DNA from: a virus
Virus genome (UHGV): UHGV-1342921
Reading direction: 5' to 3' (one strand)
DNA length: 64,000 bases
Part shown: in pieces, positions 498 through 39,483 of the stretch
Layout of the letters: each line of letters starts with the position of its first letter
How positions within the stretch are numbered: position 1 is the first letter of the stretch
Notes under the pieces: model-generated
The model's input: the letters and a program-made list of their open reading frames with translations, nothing else
Told to the model about the DNA's origin: nothing
Databases searched by the model: none
Position numbers and translations under genes: made by a program

Positions 498-578
498 GGA
501 GCGGTGGACGGGACTCGAACCCGCACAAAAAATAACCAGTTTGGAGGACTGGCGCTCTACCAATTGAGCTACCACCGC
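498..578 (-). tRNA. tRNA-like gene with anticodon loop CCUCCAA (anticodon UCC, Gly) and an atypical ~11-nt variable region; possibly a tRNA-like module rather than a canonical tRNA
   Basis: Reverse complement GCGGTGG-TA-GCTC-AATTGGTA-GAGC-G-CCAGT-CCTCCAA-ACTGG-TTATTTTTTGT-GCGGG-TTCGAGT-CCCGT-CCACCGC-T-CC. The acceptor stem is 7 bp, the D and T arms are canonical, but position 33 is C and the variable loop is unusually long. Confidence 0.45.
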
Positions 579-584
579 ATGCCG

Positions 585-890
585 GGGTGATTTTACCCTA
601 CAACCACCAAGGAGGCCTGCCGTTTTTATATCCGGCACCCGCCTGACAGGCCAAAGGCGGAATAGCGTTTTAACATCGGTGCGCTACCACCCTGGCCTTT
701 TGTGTCCAGGCTTGCTCTCCCCTGGAGTGAGTCTTTGGTGCCCACAACCGCATGATTGTTACGTCACCATGCAAGCGCCGTCCGCAGGCCGTATGTGGTG
801 ATCAACCACGGATGTATAAGACGGATTAAGCGTTAGGGCACAAGTACCCTTCAGGAATCATACCTGACCTGCGATTTCTCGCTTCGAACC
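585..890 (-). ncRNA. Candidate structured non-coding RNA (about 300 nt with no ORF, GC-rich with multiple hairpins) lying between a tRNA-like element and the tRNA cluster
   Basis: No ORF of 60 aa or more in any frame between 411 and 895. Several strong local stems, for example GGCCTG...CAGGCC, CTGGCC...CCAGG and GTGGT-TGATC-ACCAC. Same strand and immediate context as the tRNA genes. Confidence 0.25.
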
Positions 891-894
891 TCGC

Positions 895-1161
895 TTAAAG
901 CCCCATCGCCTTGCGCGCATCCTCCCGACTTACATACCCACTGCACTTGTTCTTCTTACCAGAGCCATACAAGGCTTCTGAATATGCCGGGTCAATATCA
1001 TTGTTGCCGTTACGGATGCGATAGACGTACAGTCCTTGCAATGCGTCGGCATGCTTACGAGCCTCGGAGGCCGTCTTGTAACGACCAAGCTCTTGCCACG
1101 TCCTTGAGCCATATAAGCTCGACGGCACATACTCGACGATATACAAAGTCCACACCTCCAT
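895..1161 (-). CDS. Hypothetical small protein (88 aa)
   Basis: ORF in the six-frame track (MEVWTLYIVEYVPSSLYGSRTWQELGRYKTASEARKHADAL...) with balanced composition; lies between the tRNA-associated regions. Confidence 0.35.
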   Translation of the reverse strand: MEVWTLYIVEYVPSSLYGSRTWQELGRYKTASEARKHADALQGLYVYRIRNGNNDIDPAYSEALYGSGKKNKCSGYVSREDARKAMGL

Positions 1162-1269
1162 TCAGGCGTCTTGGTTATGATAAAAGCATGAGGCAGAGCG
1201 GGTTACCTCAAGGTACTTCTTTTAGAGAGAAGCTTGAACTCTTCGCCTTGTCCCGGGCGTGTCTTTGAC

Positions 1270-1361
1270 TGGCCGAGTAGCCCAGATTCGAACTGGGACA
1301 GCACGGATCAACATGCTGGAGGGATTAGCAATCCCCTGCGATACCATTACGCCACTACTCG
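1270..1361 (-). tRNA. tRNA-Ser(GCU), type II with long variable arm, CCA encoded
   Basis: Reverse complement CGAGTAG-TG-GCGT-AATGGTA-TCGC-A-GGGGA-TTGCTAA-TCCCT-(long variable arm)-CCCAG-TTCGAAT-CTGGG-CTACTCG-G-CCA. Anticodon GCT. A 7-bp acceptor stem and the long extra arm fit serine. Confidence 0.85.
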
Positions 1362-1364
1362 ATA

Positions 1365-1456
1365 TGGCGGTGAGCCTGGGATTCGAACCCAGGAGACGCT
1401 CATCACGTCTAGATGCTTTCGAGGCACCCGCAATCGACCAACTCTGCCAACTCACC
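1365..1456 (-). tRNA. tRNA-Ser(CGA), type II with long variable arm, CCA encoded
   Basis: Reverse complement GGTGAGT...GGTGC-CTCGAAA-GCATC-(long variable arm)-CCTGGG-TTCGAAT-CCCAGG-CTCACC-G-CCA. Anticodon CGA. The long variable arm fits serine. Confidence 0.8.
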
Positions 1457-1457
1457 G

Positions 1458-1532
1458 TGGTAGGTGTGGAGAGAATCGAACTCTCATCTGACGATTATAA
1501 GTCGTCGGCCCTGACCTTTGTGCTACACACCT
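1458..1532 (-). tRNA. tRNA with anticodon UAU (would read AUA, Ile), CCA encoded
   Basis: Reverse complement AGGTGTG-TA-GCAC-AAAGGTCA-GGGC-C-GACGA-CTTATAA-TCGTC-AGATG-AGAG-TTCGATT-CTCT-C-CACACCT-A-CCA. Perfect 7-bp acceptor stem, canonical T-loop. The D-stem has one mismatch. Confidence 0.7.
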
Positions 1533-1533
1533 A

Positions 1534-1610
1534 TGGCCTCCAAAGAAGGACTCGAACCTTCAGCCTGTCGTGTAGGAGACGACCGCTCTATCCATTTGAG
1601 CTATTTGGAG
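1534..1610 (-). tRNA. tRNA-Arg(CCU), CCA encoded
   Basis: Reverse complement CTCCAAA-TA-GCTC-AAATGGATA-GAGC-G-GTCGT-CTCCTAC-ACGAC-AGGCTG-AAGG-TTCGAGT-CCTT-CTTTGGAG-G-CCA. All four stems are canonical. Anticodon CCT. Confidence 0.85.
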
Positions 1611-1668
1611 AAGAAGGGGACAGGTCTTGTCTATGGAACGTTGCCATAGACAAAGTGTGTCTCCCTTG

Positions 1669-1741
1669 TCCAGCCAGCAGGACTCGAACCTGCAATCGCA
1701 TGCTCCCAAAGCATGAGGGTTGCCAATTACCCTATGGCTGG
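1669..1741 (-). tRNA. tRNA-Pro(GGG), CCA not encoded
   Basis: Reverse complement CCAGCCA-TA-GGGT-AATTGGCA-ACCC-TC-ATGCT-TTGGGAG-AGCAT-GCGAT-TGCAGG-TTCGAGT-CCTGC-TGGCTGG-A. Anticodon GGG. Confidence 0.75.
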
Positions 1742-23933: not shown

Positions 23934-25154
23934 TTGGCGAGCAAATACGAAGACTCGACATCCGCGATTCAGGTGATAGGTGGAATCATAAACCAGCCCG
24001 AGTTGCTGGAAGACACTGGAAAGTATTTTTTTAGGGCCGAGGACTTCACATCAGAGCTGCATAGGGTTGTGTTCTCGGCAATCGGCACAATCTATGCGAA
24101 CGGCGGAACCAAAGTGACGGCCAAGGCAGTCGACGACGTTCTATCGACGTACCCCGAGGCATATGCGACCTACAAGGCGTCAAGGGGCAACGAGTGGTTT
24201 GCCAAGGTACAGGCTGAATGCGACCTCGACAACTTCGACTTGTATTACAATAGGCTCAAGAAGATGACGTTGCTTCGAGAGTACGACAACGCTGGTATAG
24301 ACGTGTCGTTCATTCTTGATATGGACGAGCTTGATGCAAAGAAACGGCAAAAACAATGGCAAGAGTTCGACAATATGAGCGCGAACGACATTGCGGACGA
24401 TATTGAAAACAAAATGTCAAAGATCAAGTCTACTTTTGTGGACAACCTAGACAAGAACACAAAACTTGTAAGTGATGGTTTGAGCACCTTGTTCAGTAAG
24501 TTGAGGAACGAGCCAGAGTTCGGCGTTCCGTTGTACGGACCTTTCATAAACACGGTGACGATGGGTGCAAGATTGACGAAGTTTTATTTGAGAAGCGCAC
24601 CTACTGGTGTTGGTAAAACTCGCATGATGATAGCCGACGTTTGCAACATCGCGTGCGACGAGATTTACGATTCCAGGATCGGTGCATGGAAAAAGAACGG
24701 TGAAAGCTTGCCGTGTCTGTACATCTCTACAGAGCTTGAAATGTCAGAGATTCAGACAATGTGCCTTGCGTTCTTGAGCAATGTCGAGGAGAACAAGATT
24801 CTCGGTGCGGAGAAGATGACTTTCGATGAGATCGACAGGGTAGAGCATGCGCTTGAGGTTCTTGAGAGAGCACCTTTGTTCATCGACATTATCTGTGACT
24901 TCTCACTCAAGGATATTGAGAACAGCATCAGGAAGAACCATAGGGAAAACAAGGTGATGTATGTCTTCTATGACTATATCATGACAACCATGAAGATTCT
25001 TGAAGAGATCACTGCGAAGTCGAAGGGTGTAAACCTCCGCGAGGACAGCATTCTGTTCATGATTAGCGTGAAGCTCAAGGATTTGGCTAATGAGCTGGGG
25101 ATATTCGTTCTTACCTCAACACAACTCAATGGTAGACTTTCTACTGCCAATTAA
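23934..25154 (+). CDS. dnaB: DnaB-like replicative helicase, exon 1 (N-terminal domain plus Walker A/B RecA-like core up to the helicase QLN motif)
   Basis: RSAPTGVGKTRMMIADV (Walker A), YVFYDYIMTTM (Walker B region), LKDLANELGIFVLTSTQLNGRLSTAN (H3/H4 region). The frame terminates at a TAA immediately after the predicted 5' splice site. Confidence 0.75.
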   Translation: MASKYEDSTSAIQVIGGIINQPELLEDTGKYFFRAEDFTSELHRVVFSAIGTIYANGGTKVTAKAVDDVLSTYPEAYATYKASRGNEWFAKVQAECDLDNFDLYYNRLKKMTLLREYDNAGIDVSFILDMDELDAKKRQKQWQEFDNMSANDIADDIENKMSKIKSTFVDNLDKNTKLVSDGLSTLFSKLRNEPEFGVPLYGPFINTVTMGARLTKFYLRSAPTGVGKTRMMIADVCNIACDEIYDSRIGAWKKNGESLPCLYISTELEMSEIQTMCLAFLSNVEENKILGAEKMTFDEIDRVEHALEVLERAPLFIDIICDFSLKDIENSIRKNHRENKVMYVFYDYIMTTMKILEEITAKSKGVNLREDSILFMISVKLKDLANELGIFVLTSTQLNGRLSTAN

Positions 25155-26228
25155 ATTCCTTATCCTTTTACCAGAGGGGTAAACGCTTCGTATAAAGTGT
25201 TTGCTAACGGGGAAGACTAAACGATAGTTATAAAAACTTCTTTTGAGAAGAACTATCGCATGTTAATCCCGTGTGATACCGCTTCTTCTCTCTTCAAGAG
25301 AGGAGATTGATTATTTTGCCTGGCAACTCTAAAATTTGTGGAATCTACAGAATCAAGAATGAATTAAACGGAAAGGTTTATATTGGGCAAAGTAAGAGAA
25401 TCTTTGGCCGATGGAACGAACATCTCCGTTCTTCTTTTCCTGAAAAATGGGCTGTAGAGACAAAGCGTGACCAAGATTTACCGCTTCATCGTTCAATAAG
25501 GAAATATGGAATAGAGAATTTTTCTTTTACTATCCTGGAAATATGTTCTCCAGAAGAGCTTAATGACAAGGAAAAAGAGTATATCAAGAAATATGAGTCA
25601 GACTTGCGTGACAAAGGATACAACCTTGCTAGTGGCGGACAAGACTCTTTTGCGTTAGCTGGTGAGCGCCATAGCCAAGCAAAACTCACACAACATCAAG
25701 TTGATGAAATAATTGATATGCTGTCTCAAGGTATTCCATTGGAAGAAATTAGCCAGAAATTTAAAGTCTCAAAGCCAGCAGTTTGCAATATAAACACAGG
25801 AAAGAATTGGCATTCTGATGATCGTCAGTATCCAATTCATAAATATGAGCCTCTTAAAGGAGAGCGAGCAGGTCAAGCTAGGCTGACAGACGAACAAGTA
25901 ATGGCTATTCGGAACGATTTTGCAGACGGAGATTTAACTCTTCAGCAAATAGCAGATAAACATGGAATCCAGTACGGAAATACAGTTTCTATCTGCTACG
26001 GATATTCTTGGACTCACCTGCCGGTGTTTAAAAAAGGGCAAAATAAAAAGCGGGGCCATGTATCGACTATCTCCGAGGCTGAAATGCGGGAGAGTAGGGC
26101 TACTAGTGGTAAGTAGCGAGGTTTTAGGAAACGAATCCTCTGAAAACCGAAATAGGATTCTATAGTATTTTACTATAGTAAGATATAGTCAGTGCTCTAG
26201 GGAAACCTAGAGACCCACGAGCTGGAAG
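25155..26228 (+). mobile_element. Group I intron (about 1.07 kb) interrupting the dnaB-like helicase gene; encodes a GIY-YIG homing endonuclease
   Basis: Exon 1 ends in U with an in-frame stop at the intron start. Conserved group I S element AAGATATAGTCAGTGC at 26180-26195, followed by a P9-type GAAA hairpin (CTCTAGGgaaaCCTAGAG). Omega-G at 26228. The joined exons restore the DnaB H4 motif (QLNGRLSTAN-TDPIPDQNLLRGSKSI versus DnaB QLNRSLEQRADKRPVNSDLRESGSI). Confidence 0.7.
25307..26116 (+). CDS. GIY-YIG homing endonuclease (I-TevI-like) encoded within the dnaB intron, with C-terminal NUMOD/HTH-like DNA-binding repeats
   Basis: ICGIYRIKNELNGKVYIGQS (GIY...YIG), R-x(3)-H, KYGIENF, N at the catalytic position. 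Repeated AKLTQHQVDEI and ARLTDEQVMAI helix-turn-helix-like modules. The start is ambiguous (TTG at 25307 or 25316). Confidence 0.75.
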   Translation: MIILPGNSKICGIYRIKNELNGKVYIGQSKRIFGRWNEHLRSSFPEKWAVETKRDQDLPLHRSIRKYGIENFSFTILEICSPEELNDKEKEYIKKYESDLRDKGYNLASGGQDSFALAGERHSQAKLTQHQVDEIIDMLSQGIPLEEISQKFKVSKPAVCNINTGKNWHSDDRQYPIHKYEPLKGERAGQARLTDEQVMAIRNDFADGDLTLQQIADKHGIQYGNTVSICYGYSWTHLPVFKKGQNKKRGHVSTISEAEMRESRATSGK

Positions 26229-26597
26229 ACAGACCCAATACCTGACCAAAACTTACTTCGAGGGAGTAAGAGTATTTGTGACAAGGTCGACTACGCCAGT
26301 ATTGCCCTCGACGTCACAGAAGACGACTTGGAGAGGATCCGCCCTATCTTGAGTAGCATTCCCGTTGTGCCGAACGTAAAGATGAGCGTATACAAGAACA
26401 GGCGCGGTGCATACAACAGGATCTTCCTTTGGATGTATGCGAACAAGGGAACCTGCCGCTACGAGACGATGTTCGCCACTGATTTCAACTACCACCCCAT
26501 AGACCTTAAAGAGACCGAACTGATTGTAAAGAGGGACGACACAGAGGAAGAGAAAGAGCCTGTTATCCTAGACGGTGGTGATGACCTTGAGTTTTGA
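26229..26597 (+). CDS. dnaB: DnaB-like helicase, exon 2 (C-terminal H4 motif through the end)
   Basis: TDPIPDQNLLRGSKSICDKVDYASIALDV aligns with DnaB ...DLRESGSIEQDADVV. KNRRGAYNRIFLWMYANKGTCRYETMF aligns with the DnaB C-terminus KQRNGPTGTVKLAF...TRF. Confidence 0.65.
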   Translation, partial: TDPIPDQNLLRGSKSICDKVDYASIALDVTEDDLERIRPILSSIPVVPNVKMSVYKNRRGAYNRIFLWMYANKGTCRYETMFATDFNYHPIDLKETELIVKRDDTEEEKEPVILDGGDDLEF

Positions 26598-31317: not shown

Positions 31318-32262
31318 ATGGCAACTTTTAAAGAATTAGAGAAAATTTATTTTGACATGTACGGTAAACAGCTTGCTCGCCCTGCTTTACATCGGTGGGT
31401 AAAAAAAGGAGAAGTAAAAGCTGTTAAAATAAAACCTGACGAAATAAATTACGATAAACAGAGTTTTATAAACAAAATTACTAGCCAGTCGTACAAAAAC
31501 AAGGCTTTTAGACAAAACCCAGAAGACTACATTGGGAAGACTTGCGGATATTTGTTAATCCAGGGAGTAGTACCGCCAGAAGAAAGAAGAGACAAGGATT
31601 ACCATGGAACGATTATGAGATGCAAGTGTCTTGCTTGCGGAAAAGAAGATGTTCAAACTCGTTTTAGTTACGTGACAGGGCAAGGAAACTATTGCCAGAA
31701 AAGTTGTGGATGCGAACAGAAAATCCAACATTTTCTTACAACAACCAAAAGGATACCAGAACCTAAAAAGCCAAAAAACAAAAAAACACCAAAGAAAAAC
31801 GATTTTGTTGATAGATACAGATTTGATTTTGACAGATTTTTGTTTGTTCATAAAATGCTTATCAATAATGATGTTAAGCGTTATTTTCAAAAATGCGACC
31901 AAGGAGAATACGAAAACGCTGTAGATCATTTTTTTTACGACGAACAATTTCTTGCAGTGTATGATTTTTGGAAAGAAAAAACAAACAACGGAGAAAAAAC
32001 AAATACTTTTTATGATTGGTCAAAGCCTAGTTTAGATCATATTCTCCCTAAATCGAGAGGCGGAAGTTGTGACATTTCAAATTTACAAGTCCTAACGGTC
32101 TTTGAAAATCTCGCTAAAAGAGATATGACATGGGAAGAATGGCAAGACTTTAAACAAACAACTCATACACAATCTGATTATTTTATAGAAAACATCTTAA
32201 AAAGATATAGAGAAAAACAAAACAATGGCGAGAAAGAGGGAGGGAAGGATGACGACAACTAA
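31318..32262 (+). CDS. Free-standing HNH homing endonuclease with N-terminal zinc-ribbon repeats, in an AT-rich insert directly upstream of dnaE
   Basis: SLDHILPKSRGGSCDISNLQVLTVFENLAKRD is a classic HNH motif (DH...GG...N...N). KTCGYLLIQG...CKCLACGKEDVQTRFSYVTGQGNYCQKSCGC resembles the zinc-ribbon modules of the 15075 ORF. Very low GC compared with flanking genes. Its 3' end overlaps the dnaE start. Confidence 0.7.
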   Translation: MATFKELEKIYFDMYGKQLARPALHRWVKKGEVKAVKIKPDEINYDKQSFINKITSQSYKNKAFRQNPEDYIGKTCGYLLIQGVVPPEERRDKDYHGTIMRCKCLACGKEDVQTRFSYVTGQGNYCQKSCGCEQKIQHFLTTTKRIPEPKKPKNKKTPKKNDFVDRYRFDFDRFLFVHKMLINNDVKRYFQKCDQGEYENAVDHFFYDEQFLAVYDFWKEKTNNGEKTNTFYDWSKPSLDHILPKSRGGSCDISNLQVLTVFENLAKRDMTWEEWQDFKQTTHTQSDYFIENILKRYREKQNNGEKEGGKDDDN

Positions 32263-34749
32263 CCTTCGATTAGACTATCATTGTCATAGTTCATTGTCGA
32301 ATATCCGCTTACTTTGACTCGATCAATACTCTCGAAGATCTAACCAAACGAGCTGTCGAATTAGGTCTCCCTGGCATTGCGATTACTGAACACGAATGCC
32401 TTGGTAACTCTATTGATATAGAAATCCTTCAAGAAAAAATTCGACAAGAGCATCCTAGTTTTAAGATTGTTCATGGCAACGAAATCTACCTTACAGACGA
32501 TCGGTCTATGGGGCAAAAATACTATCATTTTATTTTGTTAGCTCTTGACGAGGTTGGTTTCCACATGATGTCCGAGCTGTCGTCTACCGCCTGGCTGAAC
32601 GGGTATTTCGACCGAGGACTCATGCGCGTGCCGACTTTGAAGTCAGACGTCGAGGACGTAATCAAGCGTTACGGGCAAGGCCACATCTACGCAAGCCAGG
32701 CTTGTCTTGGGTCGGAGTTAAGCACTTATGTCCTGAAAATGCACGACTGCCAGGAGAAGGGTGACAAAGAAGGTCGCAAGCACTGGCACGACGAGATCGT
32801 CAAGTTTGTGAGCTGGTGCACGAACACGTTCGGCAAGGACAACTTCTGCTTTGAGATTCAGCCGTCAAGGTCGCACGACCAGTTGATTCTCAATAACATC
32901 ATGCCGTCCATCGCAAAGGCGTTCAAACTGCCGATGTGCATTACGTGCGACGCCCATTACTTGACAAAGGAAGACGCCCCGATTCATAAGGCGTTCCTGA
33001 ACTCCAAGCAAGGCGATCGAGAGGTTGACGAGTTCTATTCTGCGACGTGGTTGCAGTCGGAGGATGAGATTCTTGAGCACCTTGAAGGCACTCCCGTCGA
33101 TTATGAGCAATGTTGCAAAGACAGCATGGCAATCTTTGATAGGGTGCAGGACTTCACCTTGAGGAAGCCACAAGAGGTGCCTGAAGCTCCCGTGCCGTTC
33201 AAGCCCAAGCGACATGTGGAATGTTCTAAATATCCCATCTTGTCGAAGCTGTATGAGTCTGACAGCGAGCAGGAAAGGTTCTGGGTAAACGAGTGCATCG
33301 GCCAACTGAAGAAACGAGGGCTGTATAACGACCAATACGTTTCAAGACTTGAAGAAGAAGCCGACGTTATGGATTATATCGGGCAGAAGCTCAACACCTG
33401 CATCTTCGCCTACTCACTGTTCATGCGCCACTATATCGACCTGATTTGGAACTGTGGCTCAACGGTTGGTGTCGGTCGTGGATCAGCTGGTGGCGGTTTA
33501 TCTCACTGGTTGCTTGGCATCACCGGCACAGACCCTATTATTAGTGGTAGCCATTTTTGGAGGTTTCTTAATAAAGAACGTGTCGAACTGCCTGATATTG
33601 ATATTGACGTGTGCCCATCCAAGCGAGAAGCTGTCTTCGAAGAGACACGCAAGGAGACTGGAGAGCTTGGTTGCGTGCACGTGTGCACCTATGGAACATT
33701 AACAACAAAGGCAACTATCAAGCTGGCTGGGCGAGGATACCGTTCCAAAGAGTACCCAAACGGCATCCCTCTTGAAGAGACTGAATACATCTCCTCTCTT
33801 GTGCCCTCCGAACGAGGATTTTTATGGACACTTAAGGACGTCATAAACGGCAATCCTGACAAGGGACGAAAGGCATCTGTGCAATTCAATGCAGAGATTG
33901 AGAAGTACCCTGGTCTCAAAGAGATTCTGTTCAAGATTGAAGGTCTTGTAGTTCAAGCAGGCATCCACGCAAGCGGTGTGATCTACCCGCCCAAGGAGGA
34001 CTATTACCGTTATGGACCTTTCATGAAGGCCAAGAACGGCACCATCATCACGCAGTATTCCCTGCACATGGCAGAAGCGGCAGGTGCCACCAAGATTGAC
34101 TGGCTCGTCACAGAAGTCCAAGAGGTCATCACCCAGTGCATCGAGGAGCTTCAGCAGGCTGGGTACATCGAGAAAGGCTTAACCCTGCGCGAGGCTTATG
34201 ACAAGTACGTCAGCCCTGATGCGATTCCTCTTGACGACCCTGACACTTGGGACGCTGTAGACCGAGCAGATGTCCTCAAGCTATTCCAGCTCGACTCTAT
34301 GATCGGTCGTCAAGGTGCAAGGCTCATCAAGCCTCGTTCAATCGAGGAGCTGACGGCTGTCAACGCATTGATTCGACTGATGGCAGACGACGGTGAGGAG
34401 CGCCCAATGGACAGGTACGTCCGTCACAAGGCGCATCCGGAAGAGTGGGAGAAGGAACTTGACGAGTACGGCCTGTCAGACGAGGAGAAGACTGTCCTAC
34501 ACAAGCATTTCGACTCAAGCTACGGCGTCTGCTACGCACAAGAGCAGATGATGATGGCATTGATGGACCCAGGCATTTGTGGGTTTGACTTCAAAGCCAG
34601 TAACCAGGCAAGAAAAATCGTGGCGAAGAAAAAGTTCGATCAGATTGAAAGCTTGCATAAGCAGATTGTTGAGAGTGCCGTTTCACCTGCTATGGCAAAG
34701 TATGTGTGGGACGTTGTCGTTAAACCTTCGTTAGGATACAGCTTCAACT
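32249..34749 (+). CDS. dnaE: DNA polymerase III alpha subunit (DnaE-type), exon 1. Translation needs a +1 frameshift at CTT TGA C (32312-32318); the PHP domain and polymerase core follow
   Basis: ATG at 32249 with a GAGGGAGGGAAGG RBS gives MTTTNLRLDYHCHSSLSNIRLL then TGA. The +1 frame continues DSINTLEDLTKRAVELGLPGIAITEHE...KIVHGNEIYL (PHP motifs), then ...GIHASGVIY..., KIDWLVTEV, ...SLGYSF. The ORF-track start at 32508 is an internal Met. Confidence 0.7.
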
Positions 34750-35036
34750 AGAGGAGCCTTTTACCGGTGACGGTAATAGCAAAGCTACTTAACTGCGGGA
34801 ACTTCTTTAGAGCCTATAACTACCAACCGTGCGTGGCGACATACATGGGGCAGAGGGTAACGCCCGAGATATGGTAACAAGGTTATAGGATTAGAAAATC
34901 CGCAACGCCACCTCTGGCTGTTAGACAGAGGAACGCCCAGAGACTACCACGTAGCCTTCTCTACAAGAGAAGATGGTATAGTCCAGACCGCAACACATAA
35001 GTGGCTGGGGAGACCCAGTGCGGTATTGCTCAAACG
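34750..35036 (+). mobile_element. ORF-less group I intron (about 290 nt) in dnaE; the boundaries are approximate
   Basis: The Pol III alpha alignment breaks between ...GYSFN and (F)HGYSYSIIGYQCAWLATHYP (canonical [27 protein letters not shown]). In-frame stops lie on both sides. The intervening sequence has a P-like AACTGCGGGAAC, a Q-like AAATCCGCAACG and an S-like AGATGGTATAGTCC element. Omega-G at 35036. Confidence 0.55.
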
Positions 35037-36346
35037 TTCACGGATATAGCTACTCAATCATCGGCTACCAGTGCGCATGGCTTGCAACACACTACCCGAA
35101 GGTGTTTTGGAACACTGCATGCCTTCGAGTGGACTCGGGCGTTGAAGACGATGCAACGACAAGTTATGACAAGATTTCAAAGGCGGTCGGCAACATTCTC
35201 AACGCAGGCATCAAAGTGTTGCCGATTGACATCAACAAGTCGGGGTACATGTTTGAGCCAGACGAGAAGACACAGTCGATTCTTTGCGGTCTTAAAGCGT
35301 TGATCGGCATCAATGGCGACACTGTTCAGCAAATCATCGAAAACAGGCCTTACAGTTCGTTCGATGACTTCCGAGAGAAGGTGCCGCTGAACAAGACGGC
35401 GATGATTTCACTCATCAAGGCTCACGCATTTGACTGCTTTGACGTCAGATACAACGTCATGGTTCAGTACATCACCGAGCAGAGCGAGCCCAAGTCCAAG
35501 CTGACGATGGCTAACCTGCAAGGTCTTATTGACAGGAGCATGATTCCGGCAGACTATCAGTTGCAGATCAGGACGTTCGTTTTCAACAAGTCCTTGCGTG
35601 CCAACTGCAAATTCAAGGAATGGTACACCCTTGAGGGCAGATACTATCGTTTCTATGAGAAGTTCTTCGACATAGACGAGCTTGAGAGCGTCGGCGGCAA
35701 GTTCTGCATCTCACAAAAGAAGTGGCAGAAGATGTATACAAAGATGATGGAGCCTGTGAAGAAGTACATCACCGACAACCAAAAGGCCCTGCTTGAACAG
35801 TTCAACCTCACGTTGTTCAACGAGCAATGGAACAAGTACGCATCGGGCACTCGCGGTTCGTGGGACATGAGTTCCCTGGGCTTCTATTCCGCCAAGCACG
35901 AGCTGGACGGCATAGAGTACGACAAGTACGGCCTGTCGAAGTTCTCAAGCCTGCCCGAGGAGCCTGTAGAAGCCGAGTCGCGTGGCAAGTTCAAGATTTA
36001 CAATCTCACGAGGATCTGCGGCACGGTTGTGGCGAAAGACGACACTCGTTCGACCTTCACTCTCCTCACCCCGGATTCAGGCTCCGTCGACGTCAAGCTT
36101 CCCAGGGAGATTTACGCCCACTACAACAGGAAGATCGTGCTGGAGAACTCTGGCTCGAAGATTTCCGAGGACGGGTGGTTCACAAGGGGCACGCTTCTCA
36201 TGGCATGCGGTTATCGGCAGGGAAACATGTTCAGGCTAAAGAGGTACAAGAACACGTCAAGCTTGCTGTTGTATAACATGGCGATAACCAAGAGTGGTAG
36301 GATAATCTGCACCGGAAGCCGCCTCGGTGACGAAGACGAGGTATAA
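35037..36346 (+). CDS. dnaE: DNA polymerase III alpha subunit, exon 2 (C-terminal HhH/OB region)
   Basis: HGYSYSIIGYQCAWLATHYPKVFW...AGIKVLPIDINKSGYMFEP...LCGLKALIGINGDTVQQIIENRPYSSFDDFREKV...LIKAHAFDCF matches the DnaE C-terminal region. Confidence 0.7.
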
Positions 36347-36356
36347 GTTACATTGT

Positions 36357-36409
36357 TTGACTACAGCTCCGCTTTTGTGTTATAATAATATTTCACAAGA
36401 GCGGAGCTG
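36357..36409 (+). promoter_or_regulatory. Promoter TTGACT-18 bp-TATAAT whose -10 element sits in the loop of a 17-bp inverted repeat (terminator/attenuator-like) between dnaE and the guanylate kinase gene
   Basis: ACAGCTCCGCTTTTGTG ... CACAAGAGCGGAGCTGT (16 of 17 complementary) encloses TTATAATAATATTT. TTGACT at 36357-36362. Confidence 0.5.
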
Positions 36410-36428
36410 TTTGTATGTAAGGAGAAAA

Positions 36429-37087: not shown

Positions 37088-38389
37088 ATGAAAGTTAAAA
37101 AAAGGAACGGCAATCTCGAAAAGTACGACTTAAAGAAGATCAGACACGCGATTGAGCGTGCGTTTGAGGACATCTACGGTCAAGAGACGTACACAAATGA
37201 CATGCAGGTCAACATCAGCGGATTAGCTTCAGCGACAGAAGTCCAAATTTGCAAGGTTGGGGTCGCAGATGTAGAGGATATCCAAGATGTGGAGGATATC
37301 CAAGACGCTGTTGAAGACGTGTTGATGCTCAATGGATATTATGAGGTGGCGAAGGAGTATATTCGATACAGGTATCTCCACGAGCTACGTCGAAATGAGC
37401 GAGAGCAAGAGAAGTTTTATGACAGCATCGGTGAAAAGCTCAAAGCTACCAACGTTCAGAACCAGAATGCGAATGTCGATGAGAAGTCCTTCGGTGGTAG
37501 AATGGGTGAGGCCTGTTCTGAACTAACCCGTGATTACGCTTTAAAAAACTGTTTATCCGAAATGGCAAGGAACAACCATCTTAATAACGAGATTTACGAA
37601 CACGACCTTGATCATTACCCCACAGGAGACCACAACTGCCTGTCTATTCCATTTGACAAGCTTTTGGCTAATGGCTTCAACACAAGACAAACCGATGTAA
37701 GACCTGCAAATTCCGTCAATACGGCGTTTCAATTGGTTGCCGTCATTTTTCAGCTACAGAGTCTTATGCAGTTTGGTGGGGTAAGTGCGACGCATCTAGA
37801 TTGGACAATGGTTCCATATGTACGAAAGTCCTTCTTAAAGCATTTTAAAGACGGAATGCTTTGGTGGTGTAAGAGCTGTGACAACAGCGATAAATATGCT
37901 AAATTCCTCCGTGAAGTAGAAGACGGCTTGTGGCCCGACACACTCTTTATTGAAGACGAGAGATACAAAGTCCATGATATGGCTTATCAATACGCGGTCG
38001 AAATGACCAAGAAAGAGACTTATCAAGCGGTAGAAGGCATGTACCACAACCTAAATACACTACAAAGTCGAAGCGGGAACCAGCTTCCCTTTACATCAAC
38101 CAATTTCGGCACATGCACGCTTCCTGAAGGTCGTCTTGTCATAAAAGCAATGCTAGAAACTTCGATTCGCGGTCTTGGCAAGCTTCATAAAACCAGTATT
38201 TTTCCCTGCACTATTTTCCAGTGTATGAAGGGTGTCAATCGAGCTCCTGGAGATCCAAATTACGACCTGTTCCAGCTTGCTTTAAAATCAACCTCTCAAA
38301 GGCTTTACCCCAACTATGCTAACGTAGATTGGTCTGGCAACGCTGGCTACGATAGAAACGATCCAAAGACCTACTTCAGCACCATGGGT
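37088..38389 (+). CDS. nrdD: Anaerobic ribonucleoside-triphosphate reductase NrdD, exon 1 (ATP-cone plus catalytic barrel up to the ...YFSTMG active-site loop)
   Basis: N-terminal ATP-cone VKKRNGNLEKYDLKKIRHAIERA. Exon 1 ends ...TMG and exon 2 begins CRTANG..., which reconstitutes the conserved NrdD MGCR motif (E. coli SPMGCRSFLG). Confidence 0.8.
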
Positions 38390-39483
38390 AAGCGTAAACT
38401 ATAGCTCATGTAAAACCTCCTTAACCTCGCCAGAGGGTGTGGGTTCTTAAACTCGCTAACGGTTAGGGCTCTTATGAGTTGAGACCGTGCTAAACACTCT
38501 AAAAATGTTGTTCTTTTCTGACTCTCTTGAACAAAAAAGGGGTACATACAAGAGAAAGCAGTTAGAAAGGACCAACATGTATATCTACAAAGTAACAAAC
38601 AGTTTGAACGGTAAATTTTATATTGGGCAAACGGTTCGAACTCCAGAATCCAGATGGGAACGTCATAAAAATGATGCCCTAGGAGATCGTCACCTTGATA
38701 CACATTTTGCGAGAGCTATTAGAAAATATGGCCCTGAAAATTTTACCATTGAAACAATTGACACTGCATCCTCTCAAGAAGAACTGACGAAGAAAGAACA
38801 TGATTGGATAGTTAAGACTCGGGCGGTAGAGAAAGGTTATAACGAAACTTCTGCTATCGAAAAATGTGGTGGTAACACCTACGAGTCAAAAACCAAAGAA
38901 GAACTTGCTTGTATTGGTGAGAAAATTAGAAAAACTAAACTTGGTGGCAACAATCCTCACTCAACAAAGGTAAAATGTAAAGACACTACCACGGGCGAAG
39001 AATTTCATTTTAATTCTCAAGTAGAAATGCAAAAGTTCTTTGGCGCTCCTAATCACCTGTTTATTTCACGACGTTGTCTTGGACAAGTAAAAAGTTTATA
39101 CAAAAAACGCTGGCTAATCTCTTACGAAGAAGGAGAGATTATTGCGAAGAACCATATTGGAAAAGGTTCAGAAAGAGCAACCGGCGTTTACGTAAAAGAT
39201 TTACAAACAGGGGAAAGTAAGTCTTTTCCCAGCTATTCCGATGCAGAGCGATATTTTGGACAGAAGGAAAGAGCTTTTAGTAGCAAAGCCTACAAAAGAG
39301 GCAATTCTTTTGTTTATAAAAGTAGATATGAAATTACAAAAATTTTAGAGTGAAAGTGTATCGACTATCCCTGATGAATGTAAGGGAGTAGGGCTAGAGA
39401 TAGGCACTAGCTCGAAACGGGAGGCTACCGTCTTATGAAGGTAGAAGATATAGTCAGTGCAGATGGTGACATCTGATAACACG
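38390..39483 (+). mobile_element. Group I intron (about 1.09 kb) in nrdD encoding a GIY-YIG homing endonuclease
   Basis: Exon 1 ends in U (ggU at 38389). S element AAGATATAGTCAGTGC at 39448-39463, about 20 nt before the omega-G at 39483. Exon frames are continuous across the junction. Core sequence shared with the dnaB intron. Confidence 0.8.
38577..39353 (+). CDS. GIY-YIG homing endonuclease (I-TevI/I-TevII-like) within the nrdD intron
   Basis: MYIYKVTNSLNGKFYIGQT (GIY...YIG), R-x(3)-H, IRKYGPENF, conserved E/N. GAAAGGA RBS upstream of the ATG at 38577. Confidence 0.8.
   Translation: MYIYKVTNSLNGKFYIGQTVRTPESRWERHKNDALGDRHLDTHFARAIRKYGPENFTIETIDTASSQEELTKKEHDWIVKTRAVEKGYNETSAIEKCGGNTYESKTKEELACIGEKIRKTKLGGNNPHSTKVKCKDTTTGEEFHFNSQVEMQKFFGAPNHLFISRRCLGQVKSLYKKRWLISYEEGEIIAKNHIGKGSERATGVYVKDLQTGESKSFPSYSDAERYFGQKERAFSSKAYKRGNSFVYKSRYEITKILE

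What the first reader, a model, noticed from the sequence alone, without database searches (positions are those of the whole stretch)
34750..35036. Short ORF-less group I intron splits the DNA polymerase III alpha gene
The Pol III alpha alignment is continuous except for about 290 nt between ...SLGYSFN (ends 34749, followed by TAG) and (F)HGYSYSIIGYQCAWLATHYP. Both flanks have in-frame stops. The insert contains P-, Q- and S-like group I elements (AACTGCGGGAAC, AAATCCGCAACG, AGATGGTATAGTCC) and ends in G. Together with the dnaB and nrdD introns this makes three self-splicing introns in one replication module, as in T4 td/nrdB/nrdD, but here in a DnaE-type replicase. The exact splice junctions (34749|35037, joined codon TTT) are inferred from the protein alignment only.
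Basis: partly seen in the sequence, partly recalled or inferred. Interest (0 to 1): 0.7.

Follow-up and report, generated by a model that had tools for sequence, protein, structure and literature searches.

The report
Group I intron in phage dnaE

Summary
The intron is real, but its borders needed correcting. The dnaE reading frame breaks at TAG 34749-34751 and resumes about 280 nt later.

- **Rfam:** the group I model matches 34735-35007 over its full length, but below threshold (27.3 bits against a gathering score of 50).
- **Homologues:** introns at the same dnaE site in other phages score 57-63 bits.
- **Structure:** in a 15-sequence alignment, my P3-P9 structure (including the P7 pseudoknot) is paired in 95% of cells. 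Compensatory changes occur in 45 of 65 pairs. No shuffle out of 500 did as well, and slid controls gave 35-43% pairing.
- **Splice junction:** it is 34744|35029, so the intron is 34745..35028 and not 34750..35036.
  - An intron-less relative with 94% protein identity reads AGCTT|CTCAAACG, giving GYSFSNVHGYSY.
  - All homologues, and E. coli Pol III alpha, have F-xxx-H at this position.
  - P1 (GCUU/GAGC with a U·G wobble), P10 (CUC/GAG) and the terminal G all fit this junction only.
- **Mobility:** the intron has no ORF. Related copies carry a LAGLIDADG gene in the P6a loop. Its presence varies among near-identical phages, and two other introns use sites 8 and 63 nt upstream.
- **Architecture:** it lacks P7.1/P7.2, so it is not T4-like, and it aligns with introns found in tRNA genes.

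Verdict: a new member of a known kind, of modest interest. Splicing itself has not been tested.

The parts
32508..34744 (+). dnaE 5' exon as listed from ATG 32508. The true coding region probably starts at ATG 32249 (see Noticed in passing). The exon ends ...GGA TAC AGC TT, with U34744 as its last base.
   Evidence: Pfam PHP, DNA_pol3_alpha and DNA_pol3_finger. Junction set by the intron-less relatives L002 and P0131.
34745..35028 (+). Group I intron, 284 nt, with no ORF.
   Evidence: Rfam RF00028 at 27.3 bits, full-length match. Covariation on alignment A3. Presence/absence polymorphism among relatives.
34741..34757 (+). P1. Exon GCUU (34741-34744) plus intron C34745 pairs with the internal guide GGAGC (34753-34757). 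The 5' splice site is marked by the U34744·G34754 wobble. G53-A52-G51 of the guide can pair with exon-2 CUC to form P10.
   Evidence: The guide sequence covaries with the exon sequence in most of the 13 homologous introns compared.
34749..34751 (+). In-frame TAG, 5 nt inside the intron. It truncates DnaE if the RNA is not spliced.
34761..34776 (+). P2 hairpin UUACCG-GUGA-CGGUAA, with a GNRA loop.
   Evidence: L112 has UUGCGG-GCGA-CCGCAA, with two compensatory pairs (sequences).
34784..34788 (+). P3 5' strand GCUAC. It pairs with 34951-34955 GUAGC.
   Evidence: All 5 pairs show compensatory changes (helix 1).
34794..34799 (+).
   Evidence: 100% paired. L086 has UGCCGG/UCGGCA and L099 has UGCUGG/UCAGCA.
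34804..34895 (+). P5 extension: P5 34804-06/34893-95, P5a 34813-20/34882-89, P5b 34821-24/34873-76, P5c hairpin 34827-48 with a GCGA loop, and a further element at 34849-70.
   Evidence: (helices 4-7). This large insertion relative to the Rfam model helps explain the low Rfam score.
34906..34936 (+). P6 (CG 34906-07 with CG 34934-35) and P6a hairpin 34911-34931.
   Evidence: P6 covaries as CG/CG, GG/CC and CA/UG (helix 8). P6a is helix 9. Relatives carry a LAGLIDADG ORF in this loop.
34940..34946 (+). P7 5' strand G-A(bulge)-GACUA (the classical 'R' element). G34942-C34983 is the presumed guanosine-binding pair.
   Evidence: 100% paired. L085 and L099 have GGCCA/UGGUC, with one compensatory pair (helix 10). 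The guanosine-binding assignment is by analogy with Tetrahymena P7, from my own knowledge.
34951..34955 (+). P3 3' strand GUAGC. It is directly followed by P8, so there is no P7.1 or P7.2.
34956..34972 (+). P8 hairpin CUUCUC-UACAA-GAGAAG.
   Evidence: (helices 11-12).
34979..34984 (+). P7 3' strand UAGUCC.
34988..35023 (+). P9 domain: P9 CCGCA 34988-92 with UGCGG 35019-23, P9a hairpin 34994-35003, and P9b hairpin 35005-18 with a GAGA loop.
   Evidence: (helices 13-14). L095 has CAGCA/UGCUG.
35028..35028 (+). Terminal guanosine (omega-G), the last intron base.
   Evidence: Every homologous intron ends in G.
35029..36346 (+). dnaE 3' exon. It begins C|TCA AAC GTT CAC (F-S-N-V-H...) and contains the HHH_6 domain. 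The stop codon is included.

Best explanation
Window 34745..35028 is a group I intron in the pre-mRNA of a phage DnaE-type replicative polymerase.

**Proposed mechanism (inferred from the standard group I pathway)**
1. The RNA folds into the canonical core. This comprises the P4-P6 domain with a large P5 extension, the P3-P8 domain with the P3/P7 pseudoknot, and a three-way P9 domain.
2. The internal guide sequence (34750-34757) pairs with the last four exon bases, GCUU. This presents the U34744·G34754 wobble.
3. A free guanosine bound in P7 attacks after U34744.
4. The guide then pairs with the first bases of exon 2 (CUC, forming P10).
5. The freed 3'-OH of U34744 attacks after the terminal G35028.

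**Consequences**
- Ligation gives ...GGA UAC AGC UU|C UCA AAC GUU CAC..., which restores the conserved fingers-domain motif GYSF-SNV-HGYSY and one continuous DnaE.
- Unspliced RNA terminates at UAG 5 nt into the intron. That would yield a polymerase without its C-terminal HhH and clamp-binding part.
- The intron has no homing endonuclease gene. It most likely descends from, or is related to, copies with a LAGLIDADG gene in the P6a loop. It would now spread only by recombination or by an endonuclease supplied in trans.

**Shown here:** the fold, its covariation, the exact junction and the polymorphism.
**Inferred:** catalysis and mobility.
For: **Rfam**
- RF00028 matches the window full length at 27.3 bits, E = 4.9e-5 locally and 0.006 for the whole window.
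- Introns at the same site that align with it pass the gathering score: L095 at 62.9 bits and L001 at 57.4 bits.

**Structure**
- On a plain MAFFT alignment of 15 intron cores (A3), 95.1% of cells in my structure form pairs.
- 45 of 65 pairs have changes on both sides.
- 0 of 500 shuffles reach any measure. Slid controls give 35-43% paired and a covariation score of 0.07-0.13, against 0.515 for the real structure.
- RNAalifold independently recovers P3, P4, P5, P5a, P6, P6a, P8, P9, P9a and P9b.
- The single-sequence centroid fold recovers P2, P4, P5, P5a-c, P8 and P9, with z = -2.7.

**Junction**
- The intron-less relative L002 (94% protein identity) reads GGCTATAGCTTCTCAAACGTTCATGGA.
- The uninterrupted 1273-aa P0131, from a 90%-identity cluster of close relatives, reads PSLGYSFSNVHGYSYS.
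- The junction-spanning homologues inspected have F-xxx-H here.
- E. coli Pol III alpha (2HNH) aligns without a gap, with the junction inside the codon aligned with about F756 of GYGFNKSH.
- The homologous introns inspected have U at the end of the exon and G at the end of the intron. In most of them the guide sequence covaries with the exon.

**Polymorphism**
- Most of the 80 related IMG/VR loci have no insert at this site.
- L109 and L247 are about 95% identical to the window. They carry the same intron with only four differences, all in the P5c and P6a stems.
Against: - The window's own Rfam score is well below the gathering score of 50 (one search found nothing at threshold).
- P1 is short, with 4 exon base pairs plus 1.
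- The window copy has a C·A mismatch in P5c and a G·A mismatch in P6a where L109 is paired.
- No transcript or splicing data exist.
- An SD-like GGGGAG followed by an in-frame GTG (35018) lies inside P9b and could in principle start a separate exon-2 protein.
- Self-splicing without protein help cannot be judged from sequence.
Confidence: 0.9

Rival explanations
1. The insert is a decayed intron, or a plain spacer, that no longer splices. DnaE would then be made as two polypeptides. One would be the exon-1 product ending ...GYSFN. The other would start at GTG 35018, behind the SD-like GGGGAG. The two would assemble non-covalently.
For: - GTG 35018 is in frame with exon 2 and is preceded by GGGGAG at a spacing of 5 nt.
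- Gene callers annotate a 442-aa protein from it, deposited as DAL50545.1.
- The window copy has two stem mismatches and a sub-threshold Rfam score.
Against: - The SD-like sequence and the GTG are the P9b stem and the P9 3' strand. In homologues the same GTG is out of frame or followed by a stop (L001: GTG CGG TAA; L085: out of frame; sequences). The start is therefore not conserved.
- The whole ribozyme core is kept by compensatory substitutions.
- The intron differs at only 1.4% of positions between genomes whose flanks differ by about 5%.
- The break lies inside a motif that aligns without a gap with solved Pol III alpha structures.
Confidence: 0.05
2. It is a group I intron, but with the first reader's junction 34749|35037, giving the joined codon TTT and the product GYSFN-F-HGYSY.
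For: - T34749 and G35036 also satisfy the rule of U before the intron and G at its end.
- The reading frame is restored.
Against: - The product would be one residue shorter than every homologue inside the F-xxx-H motif.
- The intron-less DNA of close relatives contains TCAAACG, which this junction would remove.
- No guide sequence pairs with CAACU except 3 bp inside the P2 stem (reading).
- Rfam's own alignment places P1 on GCUUC/GGAGC.
- Homologous introns sit at the position of junction 34744|35029.
Confidence: 0.02
3. It is a group I intron with the junction 34744|35029, but it is not autonomous. Efficient splicing in vivo would need a phage or host protein such as a maturase or RNA chaperone.
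For: - P1 is short and the window copy has peripheral mismatches.
- The related copies that still encode LAGLIDADG proteins belong to a family whose members sometimes act as maturases. That last point is from my own knowledge, not tested here.
Against: - Nothing in the sequence requires a cofactor.
- The core helices are intact.
- GNRA loops in P2, P5c and P9b offer the usual tertiary contacts.
- Many phage group I introns self-splice in vitro (review PMC3984707).
Confidence: 0.15

Closest known systems
Group I introns in phage DNA polymerase genes (SPO1/SP82 gene 31, Bastille; reviewed in PMC3984707)
   Same: - A self-splicing-type intron inserted in a highly conserved motif of the phage's replicative polymerase.
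- Its presence varies among relatives.
- It is associated with homing endonuclease genes in some copies.
[quoted passage not shown]
   Different: - The host gene here is a DnaE-type (family C) polymerase rather than a family A enzyme.
- Three literature searches found no description of a group I intron in a phage dnaE.
- This copy has no ORF. Its relatives carry LAGLIDADG, whereas the Bastille intron's endonuclease I-BasI is described as a nicking enzyme in a reference title of the review. That the SPO1 and Bastille endonucleases are HNH-type is my own knowledge.
T4 td / nrdB / nrdD(sunY) introns (subgroup IA2)
   Same: - Several group I introns lie in one phage's replication and nucleotide-metabolism genes. 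The window also has an nrdD intron and probably a dnaB intron.
- An in-frame stop follows shortly after the 5' splice site.
   Different: - IA-type introns have extra helices P7.1/P7.2 between P3 and P8 (review PMC3984707 lists these as class-defining features).
- Here the P3 3' strand (34951-55) abuts P8 (34956-72), so those helices are absent.
Compact bacterial tRNA-gene group I introns (Azoarcus and cyanobacterial type, called IC3 in the literature)
   Same: - Same order and spacing of core helices: P7, then P3', then P8, then P7' with no insertions, plus a P2 and GNRA-capped peripheral hairpins.
- The intron in a phage tRNA gene (L099) aligns with the dnaE introns through every helix.
- About 20 bacterial introns, nearly all in tRNA genes, share the same 17-nt P7/P9 string.
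   Different: - It sits in a protein-coding gene.
- It carries a much larger P5 extension (about 90 nt) and a three-way P9.
- Assignment to IC3 was not tested with a subgroup-specific model. It rests on architecture and my own recollection of the class definitions.
Group I intron in the terminase large-subunit gene of Bacillus Herelleviridae phages (such as vB_BspH_Mawwa)
   Same: The only GenBank phage DNA with detectable similarity to this intron: 74% identity over intron positions 46-147. It lies between two terminase fragments next to a 'putative group I intron protein'.
   Different: Different host gene and host clade. It contains an ORF, and the similarity is limited to the P3-P5 region.

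Membership tests
Group I intron (Rfam RF00028) | Score at or above the curated gathering threshold (50 bits) | tested here: not met
   The window scores 27.3 bits. Homologous same-site introns that align with it do pass: L095 at 62.9 and L001 at 57.4. The shortfall coincides with an insertion of roughly 80 nt in P5 and a shortened P8 in the Rfam alignment.
Group I intron | Conserved core helices P3, P4, P5, P6, P7, P8 and P9, including the P3/P7 pseudoknot, supported by covariation | tested here: met
   95.1% of cells paired, 45 of 65 pairs compensatory, 0 of 500 shuffles as good, slid controls at 43% or less. RNAalifold agrees.
Group I intron | 5' splice site after a U that forms a U·G wobble with the internal guide sequence in P1 | tested here: met
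   U34744·G34754, with GCUU/GAGC. The guide covaries with the exon sequence in most of the 13 homologues compared.
Group I intron | Intron ends in G (omega-G), and the guide sequence can pair with the 3' exon (P10) | tested here: met
   G35028. P10 is CUC/GAG, 3 bp. All homologues end in G.
Group I intron | Guanosine-binding P7 with a bulged nucleotide next to a G-C pair | tested here: met
   G-A(bulge)-GACUA / UAGUCC, invariant or compensated in 15 of 15 sequences. The binding function itself is inferred.
Group I intron | GTP-dependent self-splicing | not testable with these tools
   Needs an in-vitro transcript assay or RNA from infected cells.
Subgroup IA (T4-like IA2) | Extra helices P7.1/P7.2 between P3' and P8 | tested here: not met
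   P3' 34951-55 is immediately followed by P8 34956-72.
Subgroup IC3 (tRNA-type) | Compact core without P7.1/P7.2 or P2.1, and homology with anticodon-loop introns of tRNA genes | tested here: inconclusive
   It aligns helix for helix with a phage tRNA intron (L099). It shares the P7/P9 string with about 20 bacterial introns, nearly all in tRNA genes. No subgroup-specific model was available.
Mobile (homing) group I intron | Encodes a homing endonuclease | tested here: not met
   No ORF of 40 aa or more in 34745-35028. Related copies have a LAGLIDADG_3 ORF in the P6a loop.
Mobile (homing) group I intron | Presence/absence polymorphism at an otherwise identical site in close relatives | tested here: met
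   L002, L005 and P0131 (92-94% protein identity where measured) lack it. L109 and L247 have it.
Intein | In-frame insertion translated with the host protein | tested here: not met
   A stop codon lies 5 nt into the insert, and the insert has no open frame.

The most novel reading that the evidence does not exclude
This dnaE intron may belong to one RNA lineage that moves between tRNA anticodon loops (in bacteria and in phages) and phage protein-coding genes such as dnaE and terminase.

The 70-nt stretch of dnaE that encodes ...KIVA-KKKF...MGYSF-SxxH... would then be a homing hot spot. At least three independent introns use it, at 34744|, 8 nt upstream and 63 nt upstream, and they exclude or replace one another among near-identical phages.

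On this reading the ORF-less copy is a streamlined survivor that persists because precise loss is rare, not because it still homes.
Probability: 0.35. Interest if true: 0.45.

Novelty: new member of a known kind. Interest (0 to 1): 0.3.

Why it matters
**Annotation.** The deposited records split this polymerase into fragments. For example, DAL50545.1 is a 442-aa 'DNA polymerase III alpha' that starts inside the intron. With the junction 34744|35029 the gene can be annotated as one protein. The same correction applies to many gut-phage contigs whose dnaE is called in two or three pieces.

**Biology.** The finding extends the familiar rule that phage group I introns sit in conserved motifs of polymerases, reductases and terminases. 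It adds family C (DnaE) polymerases to that list. It also offers a natural population series for studying intron gain, loss and site competition:
- an intron-less allele;
- this intron;
- the same intron with a LAGLIDADG gene;
- two other introns a few bases away.

It does not reveal a new mechanism.

Tried and rejected
- **Rfam at gathering threshold on the whole window:** only six tRNAs, no intron. The intron appears only with E-value thresholds.
- **DNA similarity of 34000-35800 to GenBank phages:** no match. The intron alone gave four weak partial hits.
- **First alignment including P1 and P2 (A2):** these variable regions and L112 were misaligned. I replaced it with a core alignment starting 15 nt before P4 (A3) and analysed P1/P10 separately.
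- **First structure string:** it paired P9 with the wrong CCGCA and included a weak first P5 pair and a doubtful P5d. These were corrected or dropped before counting.
- **17-mer scan of bacterial genomes:** By a rough estimate most hits are chance matches. Only about 20 loci passed a flanking-motif filter. Nearly all of these are tRNA-gene introns and one (L217) is a dnaE copy with a LAGLIDADG ORF. It therefore did not identify the phage's host.
- **L086:** its borders could not be set convincingly (P1 only 2 bp). It contributes only to the core alignment.
- **Covariance model:** not built, because the 250-position model would probably exceed the calibration limit and was not needed for the verdict.
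- **Literature:** three searches found no paper describing a group I intron in a phage dnaE. The library lacks most subscription journals, so this is weak evidence of absence.
- **Rejected readings:** A group II intron was not considered further because the sequence matches the group I model.

Full report
**1. What is in the sequence**

The ORF 32508..34751 ends ...KPSLGYSFN followed by TAG at 34749-34751. The frame that continues the protein reads ...SNVHGYSYSIIGYQCAWLATHYP... from about 35030 to 36346. Pfam finds PHP, DNA_pol3_alpha and DNA_pol3_finger in the first ORF and HHH_6 in the second. One DnaE-type polymerase gene is therefore interrupted by about 280 nt. That stretch contains no ORF of 40 codons or more on either strand.

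**2. Is it a group I intron?**

At Rfam's curated threshold nothing but six tRNAs is reported in the window. With E-value thresholds, RF00028 (Intron_gpI) matches 34735-35007 over the whole model, positions 1-253. The score is 27.3 bits against a gathering score of 50. E is 4.9e-5 for the 501-nt stretch and 0.006 for the whole window. That is suggestive but not sufficient, so I collected relatives.

- A protein search with the junction-spanning region found many DnaE homologues. Some run through the junction uninterrupted. Many others stop or start exactly there.
- Fetching contigs and scanning IMG/VR for a 17-nt string of the P7/P9 region gave homologous inserts at the same dnaE position in a range of phages.
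- Two of these pass the Rfam threshold outright: L095 at 62.9 bits and L001 at 57.4 bits.

A plain MAFFT alignment of 15 intron cores (A3) was scored against a structure I wrote from the window sequence. The structure comprised P3, P4, P5, P5a, P5b, P5c, P6, P6a, P7 as a pseudoknot, P8, P9 and P9b. The results were as follows.

| Measure | Real structure | Controls |
|---|---|---|
| Cells paired | 95.1% | slid registers 35-43% |
| Pairs with changes on both sides | 45 of 65 | - |
| Covariation score | 0.515 | slid registers 0.07-0.13 |
| Shuffles reaching the observed value | 0 of 500, on every measure | - |

RNAalifold, run on the same alignment without my structure, predicted P3, P4, P5, P5a, P6, P6a, P8, P9, P9a and P9b. 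The centroid fold of the window intron alone shows P2, P4, P5, P5a-c, P8 and P9, with z = -2.7. The fold is real and conserved.

**3. The splice junction**

Five independent lines place the junction at 34744|35029 instead.

- **Intron-less DNA.** L002, from a pig-gut phage whose exon-2 protein is 94% identical, reads GGC TAT AGC TTC TCA AAC GTT CAT GGA, that is GYSFSNVHG. Joining 34744 to 35029 gives GGA TAC AGC TT|C TCA AAC GTT CAC GGA.
- **Uninterrupted proteins.** The 1273-aa P0131 (in the 90%-identity cluster of the close relative P0001) and the 823-aa P0150 and P0153 (in the window protein's own cluster) read PSLGYSFSNVHGYSYS.
- **Motif length.** The homologues inspected have three residues between F and H. 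E. coli Pol III alpha (2HNH) aligns across the junction without a gap. This puts the intron inside the codon aligned with about F756 of GYGFNKSH.
- **RNA rules.** U34744 pairs with G34754 in a P1 helix GCUU(C)/(G)GAGC. The preceding guide bases GAG can pair with exon-2 CUC to form P10. The intron ends with G35028.
- **Homologues.** The same analysis on 13 homologous introns gives a U·G wobble at the 5' splice site and a terminal G in every case. In most of them the guide sequence changes together with the exon sequence. Examples are GUACUCCUU/GGGGAGUAU, GGCUUU/GAAGCC, UUCGUU/GGCGAA and AUACUCGUU/GACGAGUAU. Rfam's own alignment also uses GCUUC/GGAGC as P1.

The 'N' and the TAG at the end of the upstream ORF are intron bases read in frame. 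'SNV' belongs to exon 2. The intron is 34745..35028, 284 nt.

**4. Anatomy** (window coordinates)

| Element | Coordinates | Note |
|---|---|---|
| P1 | 34741-45 / 34753-57 | includes the 5' splice site |
| P2 | 34761-76 | GUGA loop |
| P3 | 34784-88 / 34951-55 | |
| P4 | 34794-99 / 34899-904 | |
| P5 | 34804-06 / 34893-95 | conserved UUAGAG/AUU internal loop |
| P5a | 34813-20 / 34882-89 | |
| P5b | 34821-24 / 34873-76 | |
| P5c | 34827-48 | GCGA loop |
| P6 | 34906-07 / 34934-35 | |
| P6a | 34911-31 | |
| P7 | 34940-46 / 34979-84 | bulged A34941 |
| P8 | 34956-72 | |
| P9 | 34988-92 / 35019-23 | |
| P9a | 34994-35003 | |
| P9b | 35005-18 | GAGA loop |
| Tail | 35024-28 | UAUUG, ending in omega-G |

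P3' is immediately followed by P8, so the P7.1/P7.2 helices that mark IA-type (T4-like) introns are absent. The architecture is that of the compact introns found in tRNA genes.
- An intron in a phage tRNA gene (L099) aligns with the dnaE introns through every helix.
- About 20 bacterial introns, nearly all in tRNA genes, share the P7/P9 string.

I therefore call it IC3-like. That assignment rests on architecture and my recollection of the class definitions, not on a subgroup-specific test.

**5. Population picture**

- **Most relatives lack it.** Most of the 80 closest IMG/VR dnaE loci have no insert at the site.
- **Same intron elsewhere.**
  - It occurs in L109 and L247, two metagenome contigs about 95% identical to the window.
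  - They differ from the window at four intron positions only, all in the P5c and P6a stems.
  - The intron differs at 1.4% of positions, while the aligned flanking DNA differs by about 5%.
- **The protein clusters hold several allele types.** These include uninterrupted genes, genes cut at this site (442-aa calls on dozens of contigs) and genes cut 63 nt upstream (456-aa calls, as in L002-L004).
- **A third site.** A structurally different group I intron (58.8 bits) uses a site 8 nt upstream, after ATGGGGT, in L008 and L009. In L006 it carries an intron ORF with a GIY-YIG-like sequence, which I did not test with Pfam.
- **ORF-bearing versions.**
  - Versions of the present intron with an ORF of roughly 300 codons in the P6a loop occur in several dnaE clades.
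  - The one I tested (L040) matches Pfam LAGLIDADG_3.

This is the usual signature of homing-endonuclease-driven introns. The window copy has no endonuclease gene.

**6. Mechanism and rivals**

The best explanation is ordinary group I splicing at 34744|35029, restoring one DnaE (confidence 0.9).

The main rival is that the element no longer splices and DnaE is made in two pieces. An SD-like GGGGAG and an in-frame GTG at 35018 could serve that purpose. However, they are simply the P9b stem and the P9 3' strand, and in homologues the GTG is out of frame or followed by a stop. The ribozyme core is also maintained by compensatory change. I give this rival 0.05. Dependence on a protein cofactor cannot be judged from sequence.

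**7. Comparison with what is known**

[quoted passage not shown] The present case fits that rule.

What is not in the literature I could search is a group I intron in a phage dnaE. The deposited annotation treats the pieces as separate proteins. The only GenBank phage DNA resembling the intron is a terminase intron of Bacillus Herelleviridae phages and an unannotated stretch in an Alicyclobacillus phage.

I classify it as a new member of a known kind.

**8. Context in the window**

- The nrdD gene is split at NRDD profile positions 265|263 by 38389..39483, which contains a GIY-YIG ORF. L109 lacks exactly this segment. The 5' exon ends in T and the insert ends in G.
- dnaB is split around a GIY-YIG ORF at 25307-26116, with a 25-bit Rfam match just after it.

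The most interesting by-product concerns the start of dnaE, described under Noticed in passing. The N-terminal 22 codons are in a different frame from the rest. The two frames meet at CUU UGA C, and this is conserved in three assemblies.

Noticed in passing
window 32249-32320 (heptamer CTTTGAC at 32312-32318): dnaE appears to need a +1 frameshift.
- ATG 32249, behind a strong SD (GAGGGAGGGAAGG), opens 22 codons (MTTTNLRLDYHCHSSLSNIRLL) that end at TGA.
- The rest of the PHP domain (DSINTLEDLTKRAVELGLPG...) continues in the +1 frame from GAC 32316.
- The join aligns residue for residue with the single-frame homologue in L002 (NVRLV-DAISTL).
- The shift site CUU UGA C is, from my own recollection, the heptamer of the prfB (RF2) programmed +1 frameshift, but no SD-like element lies just upstream of it.
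- The +1 frame has no ATG, GTG or TTG before 32508.
- The same sequence is present in two further assemblies about 95% identical to the window (L109, L247), so it is not a random sequencing error.
   Followed up: partly
window 31318-32262: A free-standing ORF with a weak HNH match (Pfam HNH_5, below its cut-off) lies directly upstream of the dnaE start. It is absent from the relative L002, where the Lar-like gene is followed at once by dnaE. The first ~35 codons of dnaE next to it share no detectable DNA similarity with L002, as after endonuclease-driven gene conversion.
   Followed up: partly
window 38389-39483: An intron in nrdD carries a GIY-YIG ORF (38487-39353). It is precisely absent from L109: ATGGGT|...ACACG|TGTAGG in the window against ATGGGCTGTAGG in L109. 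Rfam group I match at 39267-39476, 23.3 bits.
   Followed up: partly
window 25155-26330: dnaB is split (23934-25154 and 26328-26597) around a GIY-YIG ORF at 25307-26116. There is a 25.3-bit Rfam group I match at 26113-26212 and a P7-like AAGATATAGTC. The borders were not determined.
   Followed up: no
L008/L009 2690-2985, L006 1915-2990; L002 5684-5934, L020, L110 3443-3675: Two other group I introns use dnaE sites 8 nt and 63 nt upstream of this one in related phages. L110 carries two introns about 140 nt apart in the same gene region.
   Followed up: partly
L099, L097/L101/L105/L121/L122, L117 (IMG/VR viral contigs): Group I introns with the same P7/P9 core sit in the anticodon loops of tRNA genes on viral contigs. 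A 2014 review stated that all phage introns known then were in protein-coding genes.
   Followed up: no
window 36355-36423; L002 7380-7448: A sub-threshold Rfam 'mir-10' match (29.9 bits in both) lies just after the dnaE stop and is conserved in the relative. It is probably a conserved hairpin or terminator and certainly not a microRNA.
   Followed up: no
window 500-1741 (- strand): A cluster of six tRNA genes, two of them with long variable arms. A weak RAGATH-36 match (34.9 bits against a gathering score of 70) lies at 748-870 between them.
   Followed up: no
window 35018-36346: The 442-aa ORF that starts at GTG 35018 inside the intron is deposited in NCBI nr as DAL50545.1, 'DNA polymerase III, alpha subunit [Caudoviricetes sp.]'. 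The public annotation of this phage therefore treats dnaE as fragments.
   Followed up: yes
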